Positions 6,001 through 42,868 of a DNA stretch of 64,000 bases are shown piece after piece. The stretch's first letter is position 1. The number at the start of each line of letters is the position of its first letter. The notes under the pieces were generated by a model. The model was given only the letters and a program-made list of their open reading frames with translations. It had not been told where the DNA came from and did not search any database. A program made the position numbers and the translations under genes. The stretch is from Schmidtea polychroa (Eukaryota), in the NCBI GenBank assembly GCA_044892525.1, contig CM097885.1:109492001-109556000 (forward strand), in the 5' to 3' direction.

Positions 6001-9000
6001 TAGATTGAATTTGTACTGCTTCACATAAAATACCCATCAGAGGCTCATTAACAGTTGCGGTTAGTTTTACGAGATCTTTTCCCTCCGAAACTTCTTTCAA
6101 TAACATTTCTTCTAATTCAATCAGTTTCGATTCACTAATTTCATTTTTCAAAGCATCTTTAGCGACTTTTATTCCATCAAGTAAATTCTCAACGTCTTTC
6201 CTGTTCAATAGTTTCTCTTTATCACCTTCTTCGTCATCAAATAAACATTTAATTGCCTCCAATATTTTGTTACTATCCTCATCGCTATTATCTAATCGCT
6301 TTTCACTCTTTATGCCTAATGCTTTTAATTGTTCACAAATAGATTTGTCAATTTTCACTTTAGATCCACTTTCTAAAGACCTGTTTAAATCGTTTATAAT
6401 TTCTTCCACAAATCTTCTTTCTTTTTCTCCAGTCTTTGATTTCGGAATCAATGATTTCATAATTTCCAAACTTTCAACTAGTTCTTTGCCTTTCAAGTTG
6501 TTCAATTCACCTTTCTCCAGAGTATCGCATAATAATTTCTGACCACTTTCAAGTCCTACTTTTCGTTCCATAGTTACTTCATCAATAATTTCGTCAACAA
6601 TGTCTGCATTTCTAATTACTGTCGAATCTGGTACAATGGATTCTGAGATATCTTTGCACAATTTCCTTAATCTTTCAGCCTCTTCTTTATTCAATTCCAA
6701 TTCCTTCGATTTGCAATCAACCACTTCTTGTAGTTTAGGAAGAACTGATTCCAATAAAGTTTTATTTGCTTTCCATTCGTTGGATCTTTCTGAGTCTGGC
6801 GTTTCATTGATTTTACTTTCAACTTTATCCATAGCCTTTGACAATTTCGATAAATCTTGTCCTTTCAATTTTATTTGATCATTCTTTGAATTTTCCACTA
6901 ATTCTTTCAAGATTGTTTCAATTGGTCGTCGACTATTTTCAATTTCATCATGTCGAGATCTTCTAATTCGTTCCGCAATATCAGGAATGCTAGATTGAAT
7001 TTGTACTGCTTCACATAAAATACCCATCAGAGGCTCATTAACAGTTGCGGTTAGTTTTACGAGATCTTTTCCCTCCGAAACTTCTTTCAATAACATTTCT
7101 TCTAATTCAATCAGTTTCGATTCACTAATTTCATTTTTCAAAGCATCTTTAGCGACTTTTATTCCATCAAGTAAATTCTCAACGTCTTTCCTGTTCAATA
7201 GTTTCTCTTTATCACCTTCTTCGTCATCAAATAAACATTTAATTGCCTCCAATATTTTGTTACTATCCTCATCGCTATTATCTAATCGCTTTTCACTCTT
7301 TATGCCTAATGCTTTTAATTGTTCACAAATAGATTTGTCAATTTTCACTTTAGATCCACTTTCTAAAGACCTGTTTAAATCGTTTATAATTTCTTCCACA
7401 AATCTTCTTTCTTTTTCTCCAGTCTTTGATTTCGGAATCAATGATTTCATAATTTCCAAACTTTCAACTAGTTCTTTGCCTTTCAAGTTGTTCAATTCAC
7501 CTTTCTCCAGAGTATCGCATAATAATTTCTGACCACTTTCAAGTCCTACTTTTCGTTCCATAGTTACTTCATCAATAATTTCGTCAACAATGTCTGCATT
7601 TCTAATTACTGTCGAATCTGGTACAATGGATTCTGAGATATCTTTGCACAATTTCCTTAATCTTTCAGCCTCTTCTTTATTCAATTCCAATTCCTTCGAT
7701 TTGCAATCAACCACTTCTTGTAGTTTAGGAAGAACTGATTCCAATAAAGTTTTATTTGCTTTCCATTCGTTGGATCTTTCTGAGTCTGGCGTTTCATTGA
7801 TTTTACTTTCAACTTTATCCATAGCCTTTGACAATTTCGATAAATCTTGTCCTTTCAATTTTATTTGATCATTCTTTGAATTTTCCACTAATTCTTTCAA
7901 GATTGTTTCAATTGGTCGTCGACTATTTTCAATTTCATCATGTCGAGATCTTCTAATTCGTTCCGCAATATCAGGAATGCTAGATTGAATTTGTACTGCT
8001 TCACATAAAATACCCATCAGAGGCTCATTAACAGTTGCGGTTAGTTTTACGAGATCTTTTCCCTCCGAAACTTCTTTCAATAACATTTCTTCTAATTCAA
8101 TCAGTTTCGATTCACTAATTTCATTTTTCAAAGCATCTTTAGCGACTTTTATTCCATCAAGTAAATTCTCAACGTCTTTCCTGTTCAATAGTTTCTCTTT
8201 ATCACCTTCTTCGTCATCAAATAAACATTTAATTGCCTCCAATATTTTGTTACTATCCTCATCGCTATTATCTAATCGCTTTTCACTCTTTATGCCTAAT
8301 GCTTTTAATTGTTCACAAATAGATTTGTCAATTTTCACTTTAGATCCACTTTCTAAAGACCTGTTTAAATCGTTTATAATTTCTTCCACAAATCTTCTTT
8401 CTTTTTCTCCAGTCTTTGATTTCGGAATCAATGATTTCATAATTTCCAAACTTTCAACTAGTTCTTTGCCTTTCAAGTTGTTCAATTCACCTTTCTCCAG
8501 AGTATCGCATAATAATTTCTGACCACTTTCAAGTCCTACTTTTCGTTCCATAGTTACTTCATCAATAATTTCGTCAACAATGTCTGCATTTCTAATTACT
8601 GTCGAATCTGGTACAATGGATTCTGAGATATCTTTGCACAATTTCCTTAATCTTTCAGCCTCTTCTTTATTCAATTCCAATTCCTTCGATTTGCAATCAA
8701 CCACTTCTTGTAGTTTAGGAAGAACTGATTCCAATAAAGTTTTATTTGCTTTCCATTCGTTGGATCTTTCTGAGTCTGGCGTTTCATTGATTTTACTTTC
8801 AACTTTATCCATAGCCTTTGACAATTTCGATAAATCTTGTCCTTTCAATTTTATTTGATCATTCTTTGAATTTTCCACTAATTCTTTCAAGATTGTTTCA
8901 ATTGGTCGTCGACTATTTTCAATTTCATCATGTCGAGATCTTCTAATTCGTTCCGCAATATCAGGAATGCTAGATTGAATTTGTACTGCTTCACATAAAA

Positions 9001-38746: not shown

Positions 38747-39640
38747 CTATTGTTAGATAAAGGTTAAAACAAAACAGATATAATATTCATTTGTTATGAT
38801 AAATGTTCACGTCAGGCATTAGGTTTAATTAAACTTTTACATTTTCTTTGGTTGTCATAAATTTTTTATTATACAAATTGCTTCAAGAAAACATGTTTTA
38901 CAAAATGTAAAATTTGTTCTAATTCATTTACTTAATATTGAAAGTAAATTGTATTTATAAAAAAAACTTTAATTACAATTGTTTTATAAATATTTTCTTT
39001 TTCTTTATTTTCTTTTTAGGTAAACTGACCATTTCTCTATGAAAATAATGCGAGATTATATTTTTTGGGAGGGGGGGGGGGGGAGTTGCAAAGTACTGTA
39101 AATAATAAAATTTATTACATATTGACTGTATTAAATAAAAACATGCTTTTAATTAATATTTTTGTAACTAGTGGGATTATTATGATTAGTTTAACTTTCG
39201 TACAAGATTAATAAATGTCAACCCTTTCACGAATATGAAACACATAGAAACAAATACATACTCTGGAGTGTATTTTTGGTAAGTTTATAATTGACAACCT
39301 TTGAGAACCTCACATGTCCAAAAATATTTTATTCCTAAAACGTGTATTATTTCATCAGTCCTGGTTCTGAAAGGATTAGCATTATAATTAGATTATGCAG
39401 TGCCTCTGACTTTCAAATTAATAAATATATTAATTTAATAATTAAATTGCAAATACATTATTAAATTAATTAAATTAATATATTGTTTTAATATTTATAT
39501 ATATACACTTTTCCTTAGAACATCTCCATCTTTTTAATTCAGATAATGTGCTCAAAACTCTGGAATTTGAATAATTTGTGGATCAAAGAACTGCCTCAGC
39601 TTTATACATTACAAATGATAAATTTTGTAAAGCTGCTCCT

Positions 39641-39748
39641 AGTAACATTTTCATTGGTAATCATTTAAATTAACACGCTATTTTCAAATATATATTTTAA
39701 TATAAAATCTGAATATTTAAACAATATAACAATTTAAATATCATCACT
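39641..39748 (-). repeat. 3' LTR (108 bp)
   Basis: AGTGATGATA...ATGTTACT, immediately preceded by the polypurine tract. Confidence 0.92.
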
Positions 39749-39760
39749 CTCCCCTTCTTT
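39749..39760 (-). other. Polypurine tract AAAGAAGGGGAG
   Basis: Purine run directly abutting the 3' LTR and overlapping the integrase stop codon. Confidence 0.85.
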
Positions 39761-41057
39761 AAGAACTGTGATACTCTTTCAGCCATTCAATTCTTCTGCA
39801 TCTTTTCCCACCTTGATATTCTAGTTCAACTTGGTGTTCCGTTGAAAAACCAAGAATCTTTACAGGACCCTCGAACATATTACCATGTTTTGATCTCTTA
39901 TGAGGATCTATTTTTATTAGAACTCTCTGACCCACCTCAAAATGCCGATGACTTTTCTTATCTGCATCTCTTGATCTCATTTTATCTGCCGCTACCATAA
40001 CATTATTCTGTGCAGTCAATAATACTTGTTCTCGATTAAGATCTATGAATGAATTCTTTCCATGTATATTAACCTTTCTTCCAAATAGTATTTCCATTGG
40101 CGAAAATCCCGTAGAATTCTGTGTTGTTGAGTTTAGGGAATATTCAATTTTTGGCATAATGTCGTCCCAACACCCTTCAGTTTGACCATTACTCAAAAAT
40201 GTCATGATCATATCAAGAACTGTTCGTATTACCCGTTCTGCTAAACCATTAGACTTATGATCATATGGCGAAGTAAATATCCATTCGATGTTAAAATTAT
40301 CAGCTAACCCTTTGATTTGATTTCCCTCGAAAACCTTAACTCTATCCGAAACAATGTAAGCTTGTTTACCAAATTTGTATATCCAATTGTGTAAAAGTGC
40401 ACGATATAGTCTTTTCATCTTGGTTTTGAGTAGGCGTTAAACTAACCATCTTGCTGAACTGGTTTCCTTCATATGAGCAATATCGATTACGATTTGTTCC
40501 ATCGAGTTCATTATTACCCTAGGAATTAAATATTCAGCTGTTTTACTTGTCAAAACTTTCCTTATCATGCATACATCACGTTTTTTTATAATATCAAGTA
40601 TATCGGTTACCATGTGTATCCAAAAGAAATAATCGTTCATATAATTTGTTGTTTTCTTAACTCCTAAATGACAGAGTTCTTTGTGCATATGCTGTACGAC
40701 TTGTGACACTATCTTCTGCGGAATTATTATCTCCTTCTTATTATTATTTACTATTAATAACAGATTGTCTTTTACCAATATGTGATCCAATCTTTTGAAA
40801 TAAAGTGAGTCCCGAATCAAGTGAAGTATCTCGGGGCTCGGGTTTAGTATATATTTCTTTATTGTAGACAGCAAATTATCTGTTTCCTGATTCTCAATAT
40901 ATACCTGCATATTTAAATTACTTGAAGTAATCACGTTTAAAATTCTTATTCGGCTCTTCTCAAGTTTTCCTTCTTCGTGTTTGGTTTGACATTGTAGGTG
41001 AGTTCCATGGGCTTTGCATTTCTTGATAATGCCCATTTTCAATAATTTCATAATCAT
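39759..41057 (-). pseudogene. Ty3/gypsy integrase split into two ORFs (40437-41057 zinc-binding domain; 39759-40418 catalytic core and C-terminus)
   Basis: HxxxxHLGVKKT...YFFW...CxxC-like zinc motif (first Cys lost), IDIAHM (first catalytic D), IVSDR and TSPYDHKSNGLAERVIRT core motifs, LNSTTQNSTGFSPMEILFG. The segment between the first D and WIYKFG is deleted. Confidence 0.92.
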
Positions 41058-41149
41058 ATTGGTTCCGGTAATCCTTTCGCTTTGTTGAAAACTTGTCTTG
41101 CAATATGTTTCAAAGAAACCGTAGGCCTATTGTGTCTTCATTAACCAAT

Positions 41150-41410
41150 AAACTTTCTTAGCTTCATCTTCTTTCAGTACCATGTGATCTATTGTCATAA
41201 TTGTCGTAACTTCTTTTTTTACTGATGGTCTAATCTATGATTGAACATTCTGCCTTACTGCCTTGTTACCGATGCATACGACAATTTTTTCTTATCATCT
41301 GCCAATACAAATACCTCTCTGGCGTCTTCTGTATGTAAAATATTTTCAAAATTTACATTCAATTTCTCTATTTCTGTAAGAGATACTTCTAGGTTCATTG
41401 CAATTGCATC
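41150..41410 (-). pseudogene. Degenerate RT-connection/RNase H remnant
   Basis: ILHTEDAREVFVLADD vs ILxxPDxxKPFxLxTDAS; SYAS...SKAECSIID vs IAYAS...AExNYS; TIMTIDHMVL vs FTIxTDHxxL. Interrupted by stops and frameshifts. Confidence 0.55.
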
Positions 41411-42013
41411 CTAAACTTTTTCTGAATACATACGTTGTTTAAAATCAAGATATAAAATAACAATTTTATTGTCATCAACAGAGCCACTGGGATCAGTTTT
41501 GAATAATAACAGTTTGTCCATTTCAATATCATAAGATAATGCCATCATTGAACAACCTAACGGTCGCATCTCAGCCGATTGGGTGTAAAGCTTATTAATA
41601 TCCGCAATAGAACTACATATTATGTCACAAGCCATTTCATATCCATTTTTATATCTAAATCGAGCTGCTTCCATTTGTGCACGACATACTTGAGATCGAT
41701 AATCAGGGATCATACCAGTCATAACACCTCCAGGACTTTCAGTAATATTAAACAACCTTGAAGCTGAACTCTTCTCAATCATTTTATCTGGAACCTTTCT
41801 TTGTGTAGCTACTACATCACAATTATTGCCTCGAATACCAACGGAAAGCAATCCACCAAATAAATTTGATATTAGTTGGCCAAAAACACCATTAACGTTA
41901 TCAAGATCTCTTGGGGTCATGGAAAAGGAACCATCAGTTTCGTTGGTAGTATTTCCCATTTCCATTTCTTCATTAAAAGCAGCCATATTTGATCGGAAGC
42001 ACATAAACTCCAA
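41411..42013 (-). pseudogene. PSMA6: Chimeric ORF: degenerate RT segments flanking an in-frame, intronless proteasome subunit alpha type-6 (alpha1) fragment at ~41483-41857
   Basis: GGLLSVGIRGNNCDVVATQRKVPDKMIEK...LFNITE..GGVMTGMIPDYRSQVCRAQMEAARFRYKNGYE...IADINKLYTQSAEMRPLGCSM...FKTDPSG aligns with the PSMA6 core as I recall it (GGLTSVAVRG...TQKKVPDK...VYTQNAEMRPLGCCM...YKCDPAG). The flanks resemble RT motifs: MTPRDLDNVNGVFGQLISNLFG vs MPFGLxNAPxxFQxLM, and EKV*DAI vs PEKVxAI. Confidence 0.85.
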
Positions 42014-42090
42014 AAAACCGAAATCGATACCATTAACAACTCTCTAAATCCATTCACATTCAAAAATCTAATTAACTTCTAAATCTCTTG

Positions 42091-42237
42091 CTCGCGTCTG
42101 TGTGCGCACACAAGCCAAAAACAAAGAAAAGACAAGCGCACACAGACGCGAGATAAACTAATAATCCAACACAAAAATGACACTGCTTGCGTCTGTGTGC
42201 GCATACAAACCCATAATACAACGCGCACAGAGACGCG
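42091..42237. repeat. Two tandem GC-rich hairpins inside the LTR element
   Basis: 42091-42107 CTCGCGTCTGTGTGCGC pairs perfectly with 42136-42152. 42188-42202 pairs with 42223-42237 with a couple of mismatches. Confidence 0.85.
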
Positions 42238-42247
42238 AATTGACCTT

Positions 42248-42649
42248 CTAATTTACCATACGTCTTGTTACAATATCCTTGACAATCATATCTTCTGTTT
42301 GATTTGCGGAAAGAACTTCACGAACTAATTTTCTCACTCTGATTACAAAATTTTCAAACCTTTCGTCCGATCTCTGCTTTATCAGACTCATGTCTTCGAT
42401 ATTTTGCAAAAAACTTTTGAATTTTACATATTTTAAAATAAACCAACTCCGGTTCCTTAAAGGCCATCCATAACTCTTTTGCGTCTTTTGTAATAATAAA
42501 TCGAATACTGCTTTTAAATTGAGCGAATTTATCGTCACAAATTCTTCAATAGATACAAGCCAGTCCTTTGCATTTTCTTCTTTTCCTCCAAAACACTTCT
42601 TTATCACTGGGTAAATTGAATCTTGAATATTCCTTGTCAAAGATTCCAC
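42248..42649 (-). pseudogene. Retrotransposon Gag remnant
   Basis: FGGKEENAKDWL (FxG...WL) and KQRSDERFENFVIRVRKL (major-homology-region-like) motifs just downstream of the PBS. Confidence 0.75.
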
Positions 42650-42693
42650 AATTTTCTACCTTTGCTGTGATCTCGTCAGAGATGCGATTTCGG

Positions 42694-42704
42694 CGTGGTC
42701 GCCA
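42694..42704 (-). other. Primer-binding site TGGCGACCACG (tRNA-Arg(UCG)-type 3' end)
   Basis: Starts at the last base of the 5' LTR with TGG. Complementary to a tRNA ending CGUGGUCG-CCA, as I recall for metazoan tRNA-Arg(UCG). Confidence 0.75.
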
Positions 42705-42811
42705 GTAACATTTTCATTATTAATCATTAAGACTAACACGCTATTTTCAAATATATATTTTAATATAAAATCCGAATATTTAAACAATATATTAATTTAA
42801 ACATCGTCACT
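42704..42811 (-). repeat. 5' LTR (108 bp)
   Basis: AGTGACGATG...ATGTTACT; direct repeat of 39641-39748 with 10 substitutions by my manual alignment. Confidence 0.92.
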
Positions 42812-42868
42812 CTCCTTACTCGTCGTCGGATCACAGAACATCGAGTCAATGGATACGTCAAGAACAAA

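What the first reader, a model, noticed from the sequence alone, without database searches (positions are those of the whole stretch)
41411..42013. Proteasome alpha-6 coding fragment captured in frame inside a retrotransposon RT
About 125 codons of PSMA6-like sequence lie between an RT motif-B-like segment and the RT 'EKVxAI' segment, where the catalytic YxDD region should be. They are in one reading frame, inside an element with matching LTRs and TSD. The fragment has no intron although genes in this window are interrupted every ~25-115 nt, pointing to capture from spliced mRNA by template switching, perhaps via GGL microhomology. The element must then have been mobilised in trans. Host-gene transduction by LTR elements is well known in plants but much less documented in animals.
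Basis: partly seen in the sequence, partly recalled or inferred. Interest (0 to 1): 0.72.

Follow-up and report, generated by a model that had tools for sequence, protein, structure and literature searches.

The report
Retrotransposon ends built from host mRNAs
The proteasome-gene piece is real and was copied from spliced mRNA, but it sits in a leftover terminal repeat of a second jumping-gene family whose repeats carry swappable, in-frame patchworks of host genes in front of a ubiquitin-capsid fusion, the ubiquitin likely serving as a cut point that frees the capsid protein.

Summary
The PSMA6 piece is real (95% identical to the host CDS) and lacks the host's 43-nt intron 2 exactly, so it came from spliced mRNA. 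It is not inside an RT. It lies in an 823-bp TG..CA solo LTR (41436-42258, minus, own 5-bp TSD) inserted into the gag of an unrelated gypsy-type element; 24 of 24 relatives of that element have the empty site. The 'RT motif B' is a piece of an RNF126-like E3 ligase; 'EKVxAI' belongs to the outer gag. The LTR belongs to a young, high-copy BEL/Pao clade (552 exact spliced-junction matches, 356 LTR-PBS junctions). Its LTRs carry mosaics from at least 11 host gene families, sense and in the frame that runs through the PBS into ubiquitin(GG)-Gag-Pol: 64 of 90 sampled copies have at least 100 open codons there. The PSMA6 piece has dN/dS near 1, ubiquitin 0.37, Gag 0.25. Best reading: translation likely starts in the LTR and ubiquitin likely lets host enzymes cut off the variable leader (untested). 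The scan noted this clade before in other windows of this genome; I found no paper describing it.

The parts
41436..42258 (-). 823-bp solo LTR (TG..CA) of the BEL/Pao clade; carrier of the PSMA6 piece
   Evidence: homology to other loci starts and stops at these ends; in other loci the unit is followed by the PBS or preceded by a purine tract
42259..42263 (-). 5-bp target-site duplication of the solo LTR, upstream copy
   Evidence: present once in relatives of the outer element
41431..41435 (-). 5-bp target-site duplication of the solo LTR, downstream copy
42091..42238 (-). two GC-rich inverted-repeat (hairpin) units in the 5' part of the LTR, a shared mark of the clade's LTRs; function unknown
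   Evidence: sequence; such a motif was found 300-1100 nt upstream of the PBS in 63 of 90 loci
41436..41986 (-). leader ORF of the LTR, from its ATG to the LTR end with no stop; in full-length copies this frame continues through the PBS into ubiquitin-Gag
   Evidence: 86-87% identity over 110 nt to L182/L184; that ORF has PF14369, a RING and RING-E3/RNF126 look-alikes
41847..41855 (-). 9-nt microhomology at the RNF126-like / PSMA6 junction
41478..41855 (-). spliced PSMA6 piece (about residues 35-160); exon-exon junction between 41643 and 41642
42704..42811 (-). 5' LTR (108 bp, AGT..ACT) of the outer gypsy-type element; followed by a PBS-like TGGCGACCA (42704-42696); TSD copy at 42812-42816
42259..42727 (-). 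outer element gag, 5' part (broken), interrupted by the solo LTR
   Evidence: PF19317 weak hit; relatives
41258..41430 (-). outer element gag, part after the insertion (contains the 'EKVxAI' segment)
   Evidence: contiguous with the 5' part in 24 of 24 relatives
39759..41060 (-). outer element pol remnant: short stub of the RT start near 41057, most of protease/RT missing, then integrase (broken)
   Evidence: (PF17921, rve)
39641..39748 (-). 3' LTR of the outer element; TSD copy at 39636-39640

Best explanation
The PSMA6 piece is part of a solo LTR left by a BEL/Pao retrotransposon clade whose LTRs carry swappable, sense, in-frame pieces of host mRNAs; these are likely picked up by reverse-transcriptase template switching, likely translated as the N-terminal leader of the ubiquitin-Gag-Pol protein, and likely cut off after the ubiquitin's Gly-Gly by host deubiquitinases. 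Shown: nested solo LTR with TSD; spliced origin; mosaic LTRs; one open frame from the LTR through the PBS, ubiquitin, Gag and (in some copies) Pol. Inferred: because the start codon lies in the LTR, any capture must keep the frame open or the copy cannot make Gag in cis, so only in-frame captures spread; because ubiquitin separates leader from Gag, the leader's amino-acid sequence is free to drift and be replaced. Captures would end up in both LTRs if the switch happens while the primer-proximal (strong-stop) DNA is made (inference from standard LTR reverse transcription). The window copy is a dead remnant: LTR-LTR recombination left the solo LTR inside another element's gag.
For: Solo LTR and TSD. 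Intron loss; intron sequences found only in the host locus among fetched loci. Copy number: 552 exact matches to a 21-mer across the splice junction, control 0; 356 LTR-end+PBS matches, control 0. Family: DUF1759, Peptidase_A17, DUF5641, RVT_1. Frame: 64 of the first 90 PBS sites on C1 have >=100 open codons upstream in the PBS frame against 0 and 1 in the other sense frames; in 63 of them 0.86 stops per 140 codons against 5.4-14.2 in the five other frames; 40 of 41 PSMA6 pieces in frame, none antisense; 62 of the 64 have an ATG >=100 codons upstream. Host families in that frame: Proteasome, EAP30, RING, Ras, DSPc, Cpn60_TCP1, Adaptin_N, LIM, Cofilin, CLP_protease, Myotub-related; out-of-frame control: 1 real hit in 146 ORFs from 24 LTR classes. 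CCT piece 98.9% identical to its host gene. Unbroken LTR-to-integrase frame in 2 of 15 long loci; LTR pairs mostly 99-100% identical. Selection contrast: PSMA6 piece dN/dS about 1, PBS-ubiquitin spacer 0.81, ubiquitin 0.37, Gag 0.25. 56 of 59 ubiquitin units end in GG, in two lineages with different tails. Precedent for ubiquitin as a captured processing signal: PMC8310069 passages.
Against: No transcript start, ribosome or protein data: translation of the leader and cleavage are unobserved. The Gag-adjacent ubiquitin has lost Arg74 in both lineages (tails LRLCGG, LGLAGG), and UCH-L3 prefers Arg at that position (10.1101/2020.01.30.926881 passages), so cleavage may be slow or done by another protease. 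A donor-like AAG-GT follows the PBS in 72 of 90 loci, so splicing could change what the leader joins. Only 38 of 55 loci with a detected ubiquitin have it in the PBS frame and 30 are open through it (the rest look decayed). Stop depletion among shared substitutions is modest (0 of 77 against 4.0 expected, p=0.016; singletons against shared, Fisher p=0.14; copies partly chosen by protein search). Microhomology alone puts 42-49% of junctions in frame. The host RNF126-like gene was not located, so its spliced origin is untested.
Confidence: 0.66

Rival explanations
1. Captures are kept for their nucleotide sequence: host-like LTR sequence shields the element from piRNA silencing (or turns piRNAs on host genes), and swapping cassettes escapes existing piRNAs; the open frame is only a constraint. 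Compatible with the best explanation, but puts the benefit at RNA level.
For: Neutral protein evolution of the PSMA6 piece; 24 LTR classes among 63 loci on shared internal regions; sources are conserved housekeeping genes; precedent in Drosophila telomeric elements and maize (PMC13534243 passages).
Against: No small-RNA data; pieces drift to 83-87% identity in young, spreading subfamilies, where targeting is expected to fade (passages); abundant mRNAs would be captured most often without any benefit.
Confidence: 0.25
2. The captured pieces are functional accessory proteins (dominant-negative fragments that disturb the proteasome, ESCRT-II, trafficking or chaperones).
For: Several sources belong to proteostasis or trafficking (PSMA6, RNF126-like, EAP30, ClpP, CCT, Rab, Adaptin_N); the frame is kept.
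Against: dN/dS about 1 for the PSMA6 piece in most lineages (0.44-0.55 only in one, where a compensated frameshift lies in the piece); pieces are progressively truncated (36-562, 96-479, 145-460, 145-218 of the CDS) and are not whole domains.
Confidence: 0.08
3. One reading: PSMA6 mRNA was switched into the RT of the surrounding element, which then moved in trans.
For: One open frame across the piece; spliced origin.
Against: Separate TSD and LTR ends; empty site in 24 of 24 relatives; site is in gag, RT starts downstream; flanks are not RT.
Confidence: 0.01

Closest known systems
LTR-mediated retrocopies in metazoans (Tan et al. 2016, PMC5131818; abstract and passages seen)
   Same: Spliced host mRNA pieces joined to LTR elements at short microsimilarities; multi-gene chimeras, one case by a Pao element; sense orientation.
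   Different: There the retrocopy replaces part of the internal ORFs between the LTRs, giving non-autonomous loci. Here the pieces lie inside the LTR, are carried by copies with complete pol, reach hundreds of copies, and are in frame with ubiquitin-Gag.
BEL/Pao (Belpaoviridae) LTR retrotransposons
   Same: DUF1759 Gag with Cys-His boxes, protease-RT-RNase H-integrase order, Peptidase_A17, DUF5641, TG..CA LTRs, 5-bp TSD.
   Different: ORF opens inside the LTR and reads through the PBS; ubiquitin (one or two units) before Gag; host mosaics in the LTR.
Cellular inserts of cytopathogenic pestiviruses (ubiquitin before NS3; PMC8310069 passages)
   Same: Captured ubiquitin, N-terminally trimmed and preceded by another host piece, placed directly before a mobile-element protein.
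   Different: RNA virus, sporadic variants, cleavage shown experimentally; here a fixed feature of a retrotransposon clade, Arg74 lost, cleavage untested.
Burro/GYPSM1 giant gypsy elements of planarians (PMC6431247 passages)
   Same: Flatworm LTR elements with host-like domains, including ubiquitin-like ones, in the polyprotein.
   Different: Gypsy, over 30 kb, domains internal to the ORF; not LTR cassettes, not BEL/Pao.

Membership tests
Solo LTR | TG..CA ends, own TSD, no PBS or internal region, same unit found as paired LTRs elsewhere | tested here: met
BEL/Pao LTR retrotransposon | DUF1759-type Gag with Cys-His boxes | tested here: met
BEL/Pao LTR retrotransposon | Pol with protease, RT, RNase H (Peptidase_A17), integrase with DUF5641, in that order | tested here: met
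BEL/Pao LTR retrotransposon | PBS after the 5' LTR and purine tract before the 3' LTR | tested here: met
   that the PBS matches initiator Met-tRNA is recalled, not tested
BEL/Pao LTR retrotransposon | RT phylogeny within the BEL/Pao clade | not tested
   no RT tree built; assignment rests on Pfam domains
LTR-mediated retrocopy (Tan et al. type) | Exact intron loss | tested here: met
   PSMA6 introns 1 and 2; not testable for the CCT piece (host stretch has no intron) or the RNF piece (host not found)
LTR-mediated retrocopy (Tan et al. type) | Microsimilarity at the junctions | tested here: met
   9 nt at the RNF/PSMA6 junction; the 3' junction donor is unknown
LTR-mediated retrocopy (Tan et al. 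type) | Retrocopy replaces internal ORF sequence between the LTRs | tested here: not met
   pieces lie within both LTRs; internal region intact
Ubiquitin processing signal | Ubiquitin fold ending in GG directly before the mature protein | tested here: met
   PF00240; 56 of 59 units end in GG
Ubiquitin processing signal | Cleavage after GG by host deubiquitinases | not testable with these tools
   Arg74 is replaced in Gag-adjacent units

The most novel reading that the evidence does not exclude
An autonomous animal retrotransposon clade uses its LTR as a continuously re-shuffled gene-capture cassette: translation starts in the LTR, a captured ubiquitin insulates Gag from whatever is upstream, and so the element samples and amplifies in-frame chimeras of host mRNAs, scattering over a thousand promoter-plus-open-frame solo LTRs; cassette turnover is selected as escape from, or subversion of, piRNA silencing.
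Probability: 0.35. Interest if true: 0.88.

Novelty: new variant of a known kind. Interest (0 to 1): 0.74.

Why it matters
Gene transduction by LTR elements in animals is known as rare internal replacements that cripple the element. Here capture is built into the LTR of a successful clade with intact pol, repeated for at least 11 gene families, always sense and almost always in frame. If the ubiquitin is a cut point, it explains how an element can tolerate arbitrary N-terminal cargo, and it makes testable whether host-like cargo protects transposons from piRNAs in an animal. It also matters for annotation: hundreds of PSMA6-, RING- and other look-alike 'genes' in this genome are LTRs.

Tried and rejected
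RT-insert model rejected. Helitron or MITE carrier considered from the hairpins and tandem spacing, rejected: TG..CA ends, 5-bp TSDs, PBS and purine tract. Host RNF126-like gene: PF14369 gave 11 matches; the 10 loci held for them were LTR copies as far as examined (5 read, 5); a pattern for the uncaptured RING end found nothing; a homologue search with the LTR ORF found none at E<=0.001. Two candidate Rab host loci proved to be LTR copies. Expression: no RNA holder listed; contigs of four runs guessed to be RNA cover parts of LTR, ubiquitin and Gag, but no listed piece bridges LTR to ubiquitin and two joints lack GT..AG ends: no evidence either way on start site or splicing. L115 (HSP70 hit) lacks the hairpins and ubiquitin and was not counted among the 11 families. 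Grohme et al. 2018 is not held; it, its supplements and Repbase may describe this family. No structure or complex prediction was run.

Full report
Observation. The minus-strand frame 41411-42043 is open and its residues 63-188 match proteasome alpha-6 (E=1.4e-39; PF00227). The best named database hit is a flatworm protein at 58%; the host is an AT-rich animal, probably a flatworm (inference). The host gene was found with the C-terminal part that the copies lack: G000:C1:117275317 onward (L056), 246 codons, three introns of 50, 43 and 42 nt. The window piece is 95.05% identical to CDS nt 96-479 and lacks intron 2 exactly. A longer variant in 11 loci (nt 36-562 or less) lacks intron 1 as well. 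Spliced origin is therefore shown.

It is not in an RT. Compared with the surrounding 3.2-kb element, 34 of the 35 other fetched loci of this type matched only an 825-bp part; one (L045) also held separate pieces of the outer family. The part has fixed ends, TG..CA, at 42258 and 41436, with a 5-bp duplication on both sides. Seven of nine solo units with both ends located had a direct 5-bp TSD, two of them trivially in (AAT)n; the other two had 6- and 4-bp matches. In other loci the same unit is followed by a PBS or preceded by a purine tract, so it is an LTR. The top 24 relatives of the outer element all have the empty site and none carries the unit. In them the sequence after the site continues gag; zinc knuckle, protease and RT start follow later. 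The supposed RT motif B is 86-87% identical over 110 nt to an ORF in sister LTRs that has the PF14369 zinc ribbon, a RING and RING-E3/RNF126 look-alikes; it has no PDB or Pfam hit of its own. The RNF and PSMA6 pieces overlap by 9 identical bases.

The carrier family. Full-length copies are about 7.3-7.8 kb with DUF1759 Gag, Peptidase_A17, RVT_1, integrase and DUF5641: BEL/Pao by domains. Copies of 4.7-5.6 kb lack most of pol. LTR pairs are mostly 99-100% identical, so the clade is young. Exact counts: 552 matches to a 21-mer across the PSMA6 splice junction and 356 LTR-end+PBS junctions, both with control 0; an RNF-type LTR hit the 150 cap. I took the first 90 of the 356 PBS sites, all on C1. 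Sixty-four have at least 100 open codons upstream of the PBS in the frame that reads on through the PBS, against 0 and 1 in the other sense frames. Because a shared stop near the LTR end biases that count, I also counted stops in a 140-codon stretch in the 63 loci where a hairpin motif marked a complete LTR: 0.86 per copy in that frame, 5.4-14.2 in the other five. Pfam finds 11 host families in these leaders and in those: Proteasome, EAP30, RING, Ras, DSPc, Cpn60_TCP1, Adaptin_N, LIM, Cofilin, CLP_protease, Myotub-related (49 of 77 leaders were scanned, near-duplicates left out). Many leaders join two or three genes. As control, 146 ORFs in the other frames of 24 class representatives gave one real hit, a PSMA6 piece in one decayed copy, and one set of spurious repeat hits. 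Forty-one of 90 loci have a PSMA6 piece: all sense, 40 in frame. The CCT piece is 98.9% identical to its host gene over 443 nt, so capture is recent. Microhomology between coding sequences is in frame 42-49% of the time; about 12 distinct junctions read from the Pfam hits are all in frame (my count; about 2e-4 at 0.49 each).

Downstream, the frame runs through a T-rich spacer into ubiquitin and Gag. Of 55 loci with a detected ubiquitin, 38 have it in the PBS frame, 30 are open through it and 25 are open from at least 100 codons inside the LTR. Two of 15 long loci have one unbroken frame from the LTR to the integrase end. Fifty-six of 59 ubiquitin units end in GG; the Gag-adjacent tails are LRLCGG in one lineage and LGLAGG in the other.

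Selection. Against the host CDS, 70 copies give dN/dS near 1 for the PSMA6 piece (window copy dN 0.055, dS 0.038); substitutions shared by four or more copies include 0 stops of 77 against 4.0 expected (p=0.016), but singletons against shared is not significant (p=0.14) and many copies were chosen by a protein search. Among 19 copies of one lineage, pairwise dN/dS is 0.81 for the spacer, 0.37 for ubiquitin, 0.25 for the first 150 Gag codons; RT 0.17 on six close copies (pairs are not independent). So the frame is kept, the leader's amino acids are not, and ubiquitin is.

Mechanism. Shown: anatomy, spliced origin, frame, selection contrast. Inferred: transcripts start upstream of the leader ATG (62 of 64 long leaders have an ATG at least 100 codons before the PBS); RT switches to co-packaged host mRNAs at short matches while copying the primer-proximal end, which places the piece in both LTRs; out-of-frame captures cannot make Gag in cis and do not spread; host deubiquitinases cut after GG so Gag gets a constant N-terminus. 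Against: Arg74 is lost, and UCH-L3 prefers Arg there; a donor-like AAG-GT follows the PBS in 72 of 90 loci; there is no direct expression evidence. Nested truncations and substitutions shared by nearly all short variants (for example 35 of 35 at CDS nt 140) suggest one PSMA6 capture followed by replacement of its ends by later captures. I put the anatomy at about 0.95, translation of the leader at about 0.8 and deubiquitinase cleavage at about 0.55.

Known systems. Tan et al. 2016 (PMC5131818; abstract and passages) describe microsimilarity-driven capture in animals, with internal ORFs replaced in all Drosophila cases; here the LTR itself is the cassette. Pestivirus ubiquitin inserts are the functional analogue (PMC8310069, passages). 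Burro elements carry ubiquitin-like domains but are giant gypsy elements (PMC6431247, passages). Gene capture as anti-silencing is described for Drosophila telomeric elements (PMC13534243, passages). A planarian comparative-genomics paper has no occurrence of 'proteasome' in its main text (PMC11410931, passages; supplements not read). Searches (listings only) showed no description of this arrangement; the library lacks most subscription papers, Grohme et al. 2018 and Repbase, so prior description cannot be excluded. Earlier notes of this scan on other windows of the same genome describe the same clade; I had reached and recorded this reading before opening them, and they are not independent support.

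Verdict. Observation partly confirmed, interpretation partly supported. The window copy is a dead solo LTR, but it marks a new variant of LTR-mediated gene capture. Interest 0.74.

Noticed in passing
window 1-33800, minus strand: 34 tandem copies of a 990-bp unit at 98-100% identity form one stop-free frame of 11,266 codons (330-residue acidic repeat): a giant repeat-protein exon.
   Followed up: partly
   Followed up: partly
L009, L011, L012, L037, L039, L060, L193, L195, L199, L200: Many insertions of the BEL/Pao clade lie in (AAT)n microsatellites, suggesting a target preference; not counted against a null.
   Followed up: no
L067, L068, L069, L196: Tandem elements sharing LTRs (LTR-internal-LTR-internal-LTR).
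   Followed up: no
L092/L136/L175, L101/L108/L139/L176, L104/L122/L179, L069/L156/L160/L177: Four further LTR leader classes of 130-290 open codons with no Pfam hit: probably pieces of unannotated host genes.
   Followed up: no
L101, L122, L145, L165, L193: One lineage has two ubiquitin units in tandem, the first close to host ubiquitin with LRLRGG, the second with LGLAGG: likely a polyubiquitin capture.
   Followed up: partly
L057 (G000:C3:79621486-79624614): A decayed PSMA6 3' fragment outside the LTR family.
   Followed up: no
P0039: A database protein from an unnamed ENA contig is an EAP30-PSMA6 chimera like the leaders of L091-type LTRs.
   Followed up: no
L038:3736-3850 and 8516-8644: An element of the clade inserted in a gypsy RT is flanked by a duplication of about 115-129 bp rather than a 5-bp TSD.
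   Followed up: no
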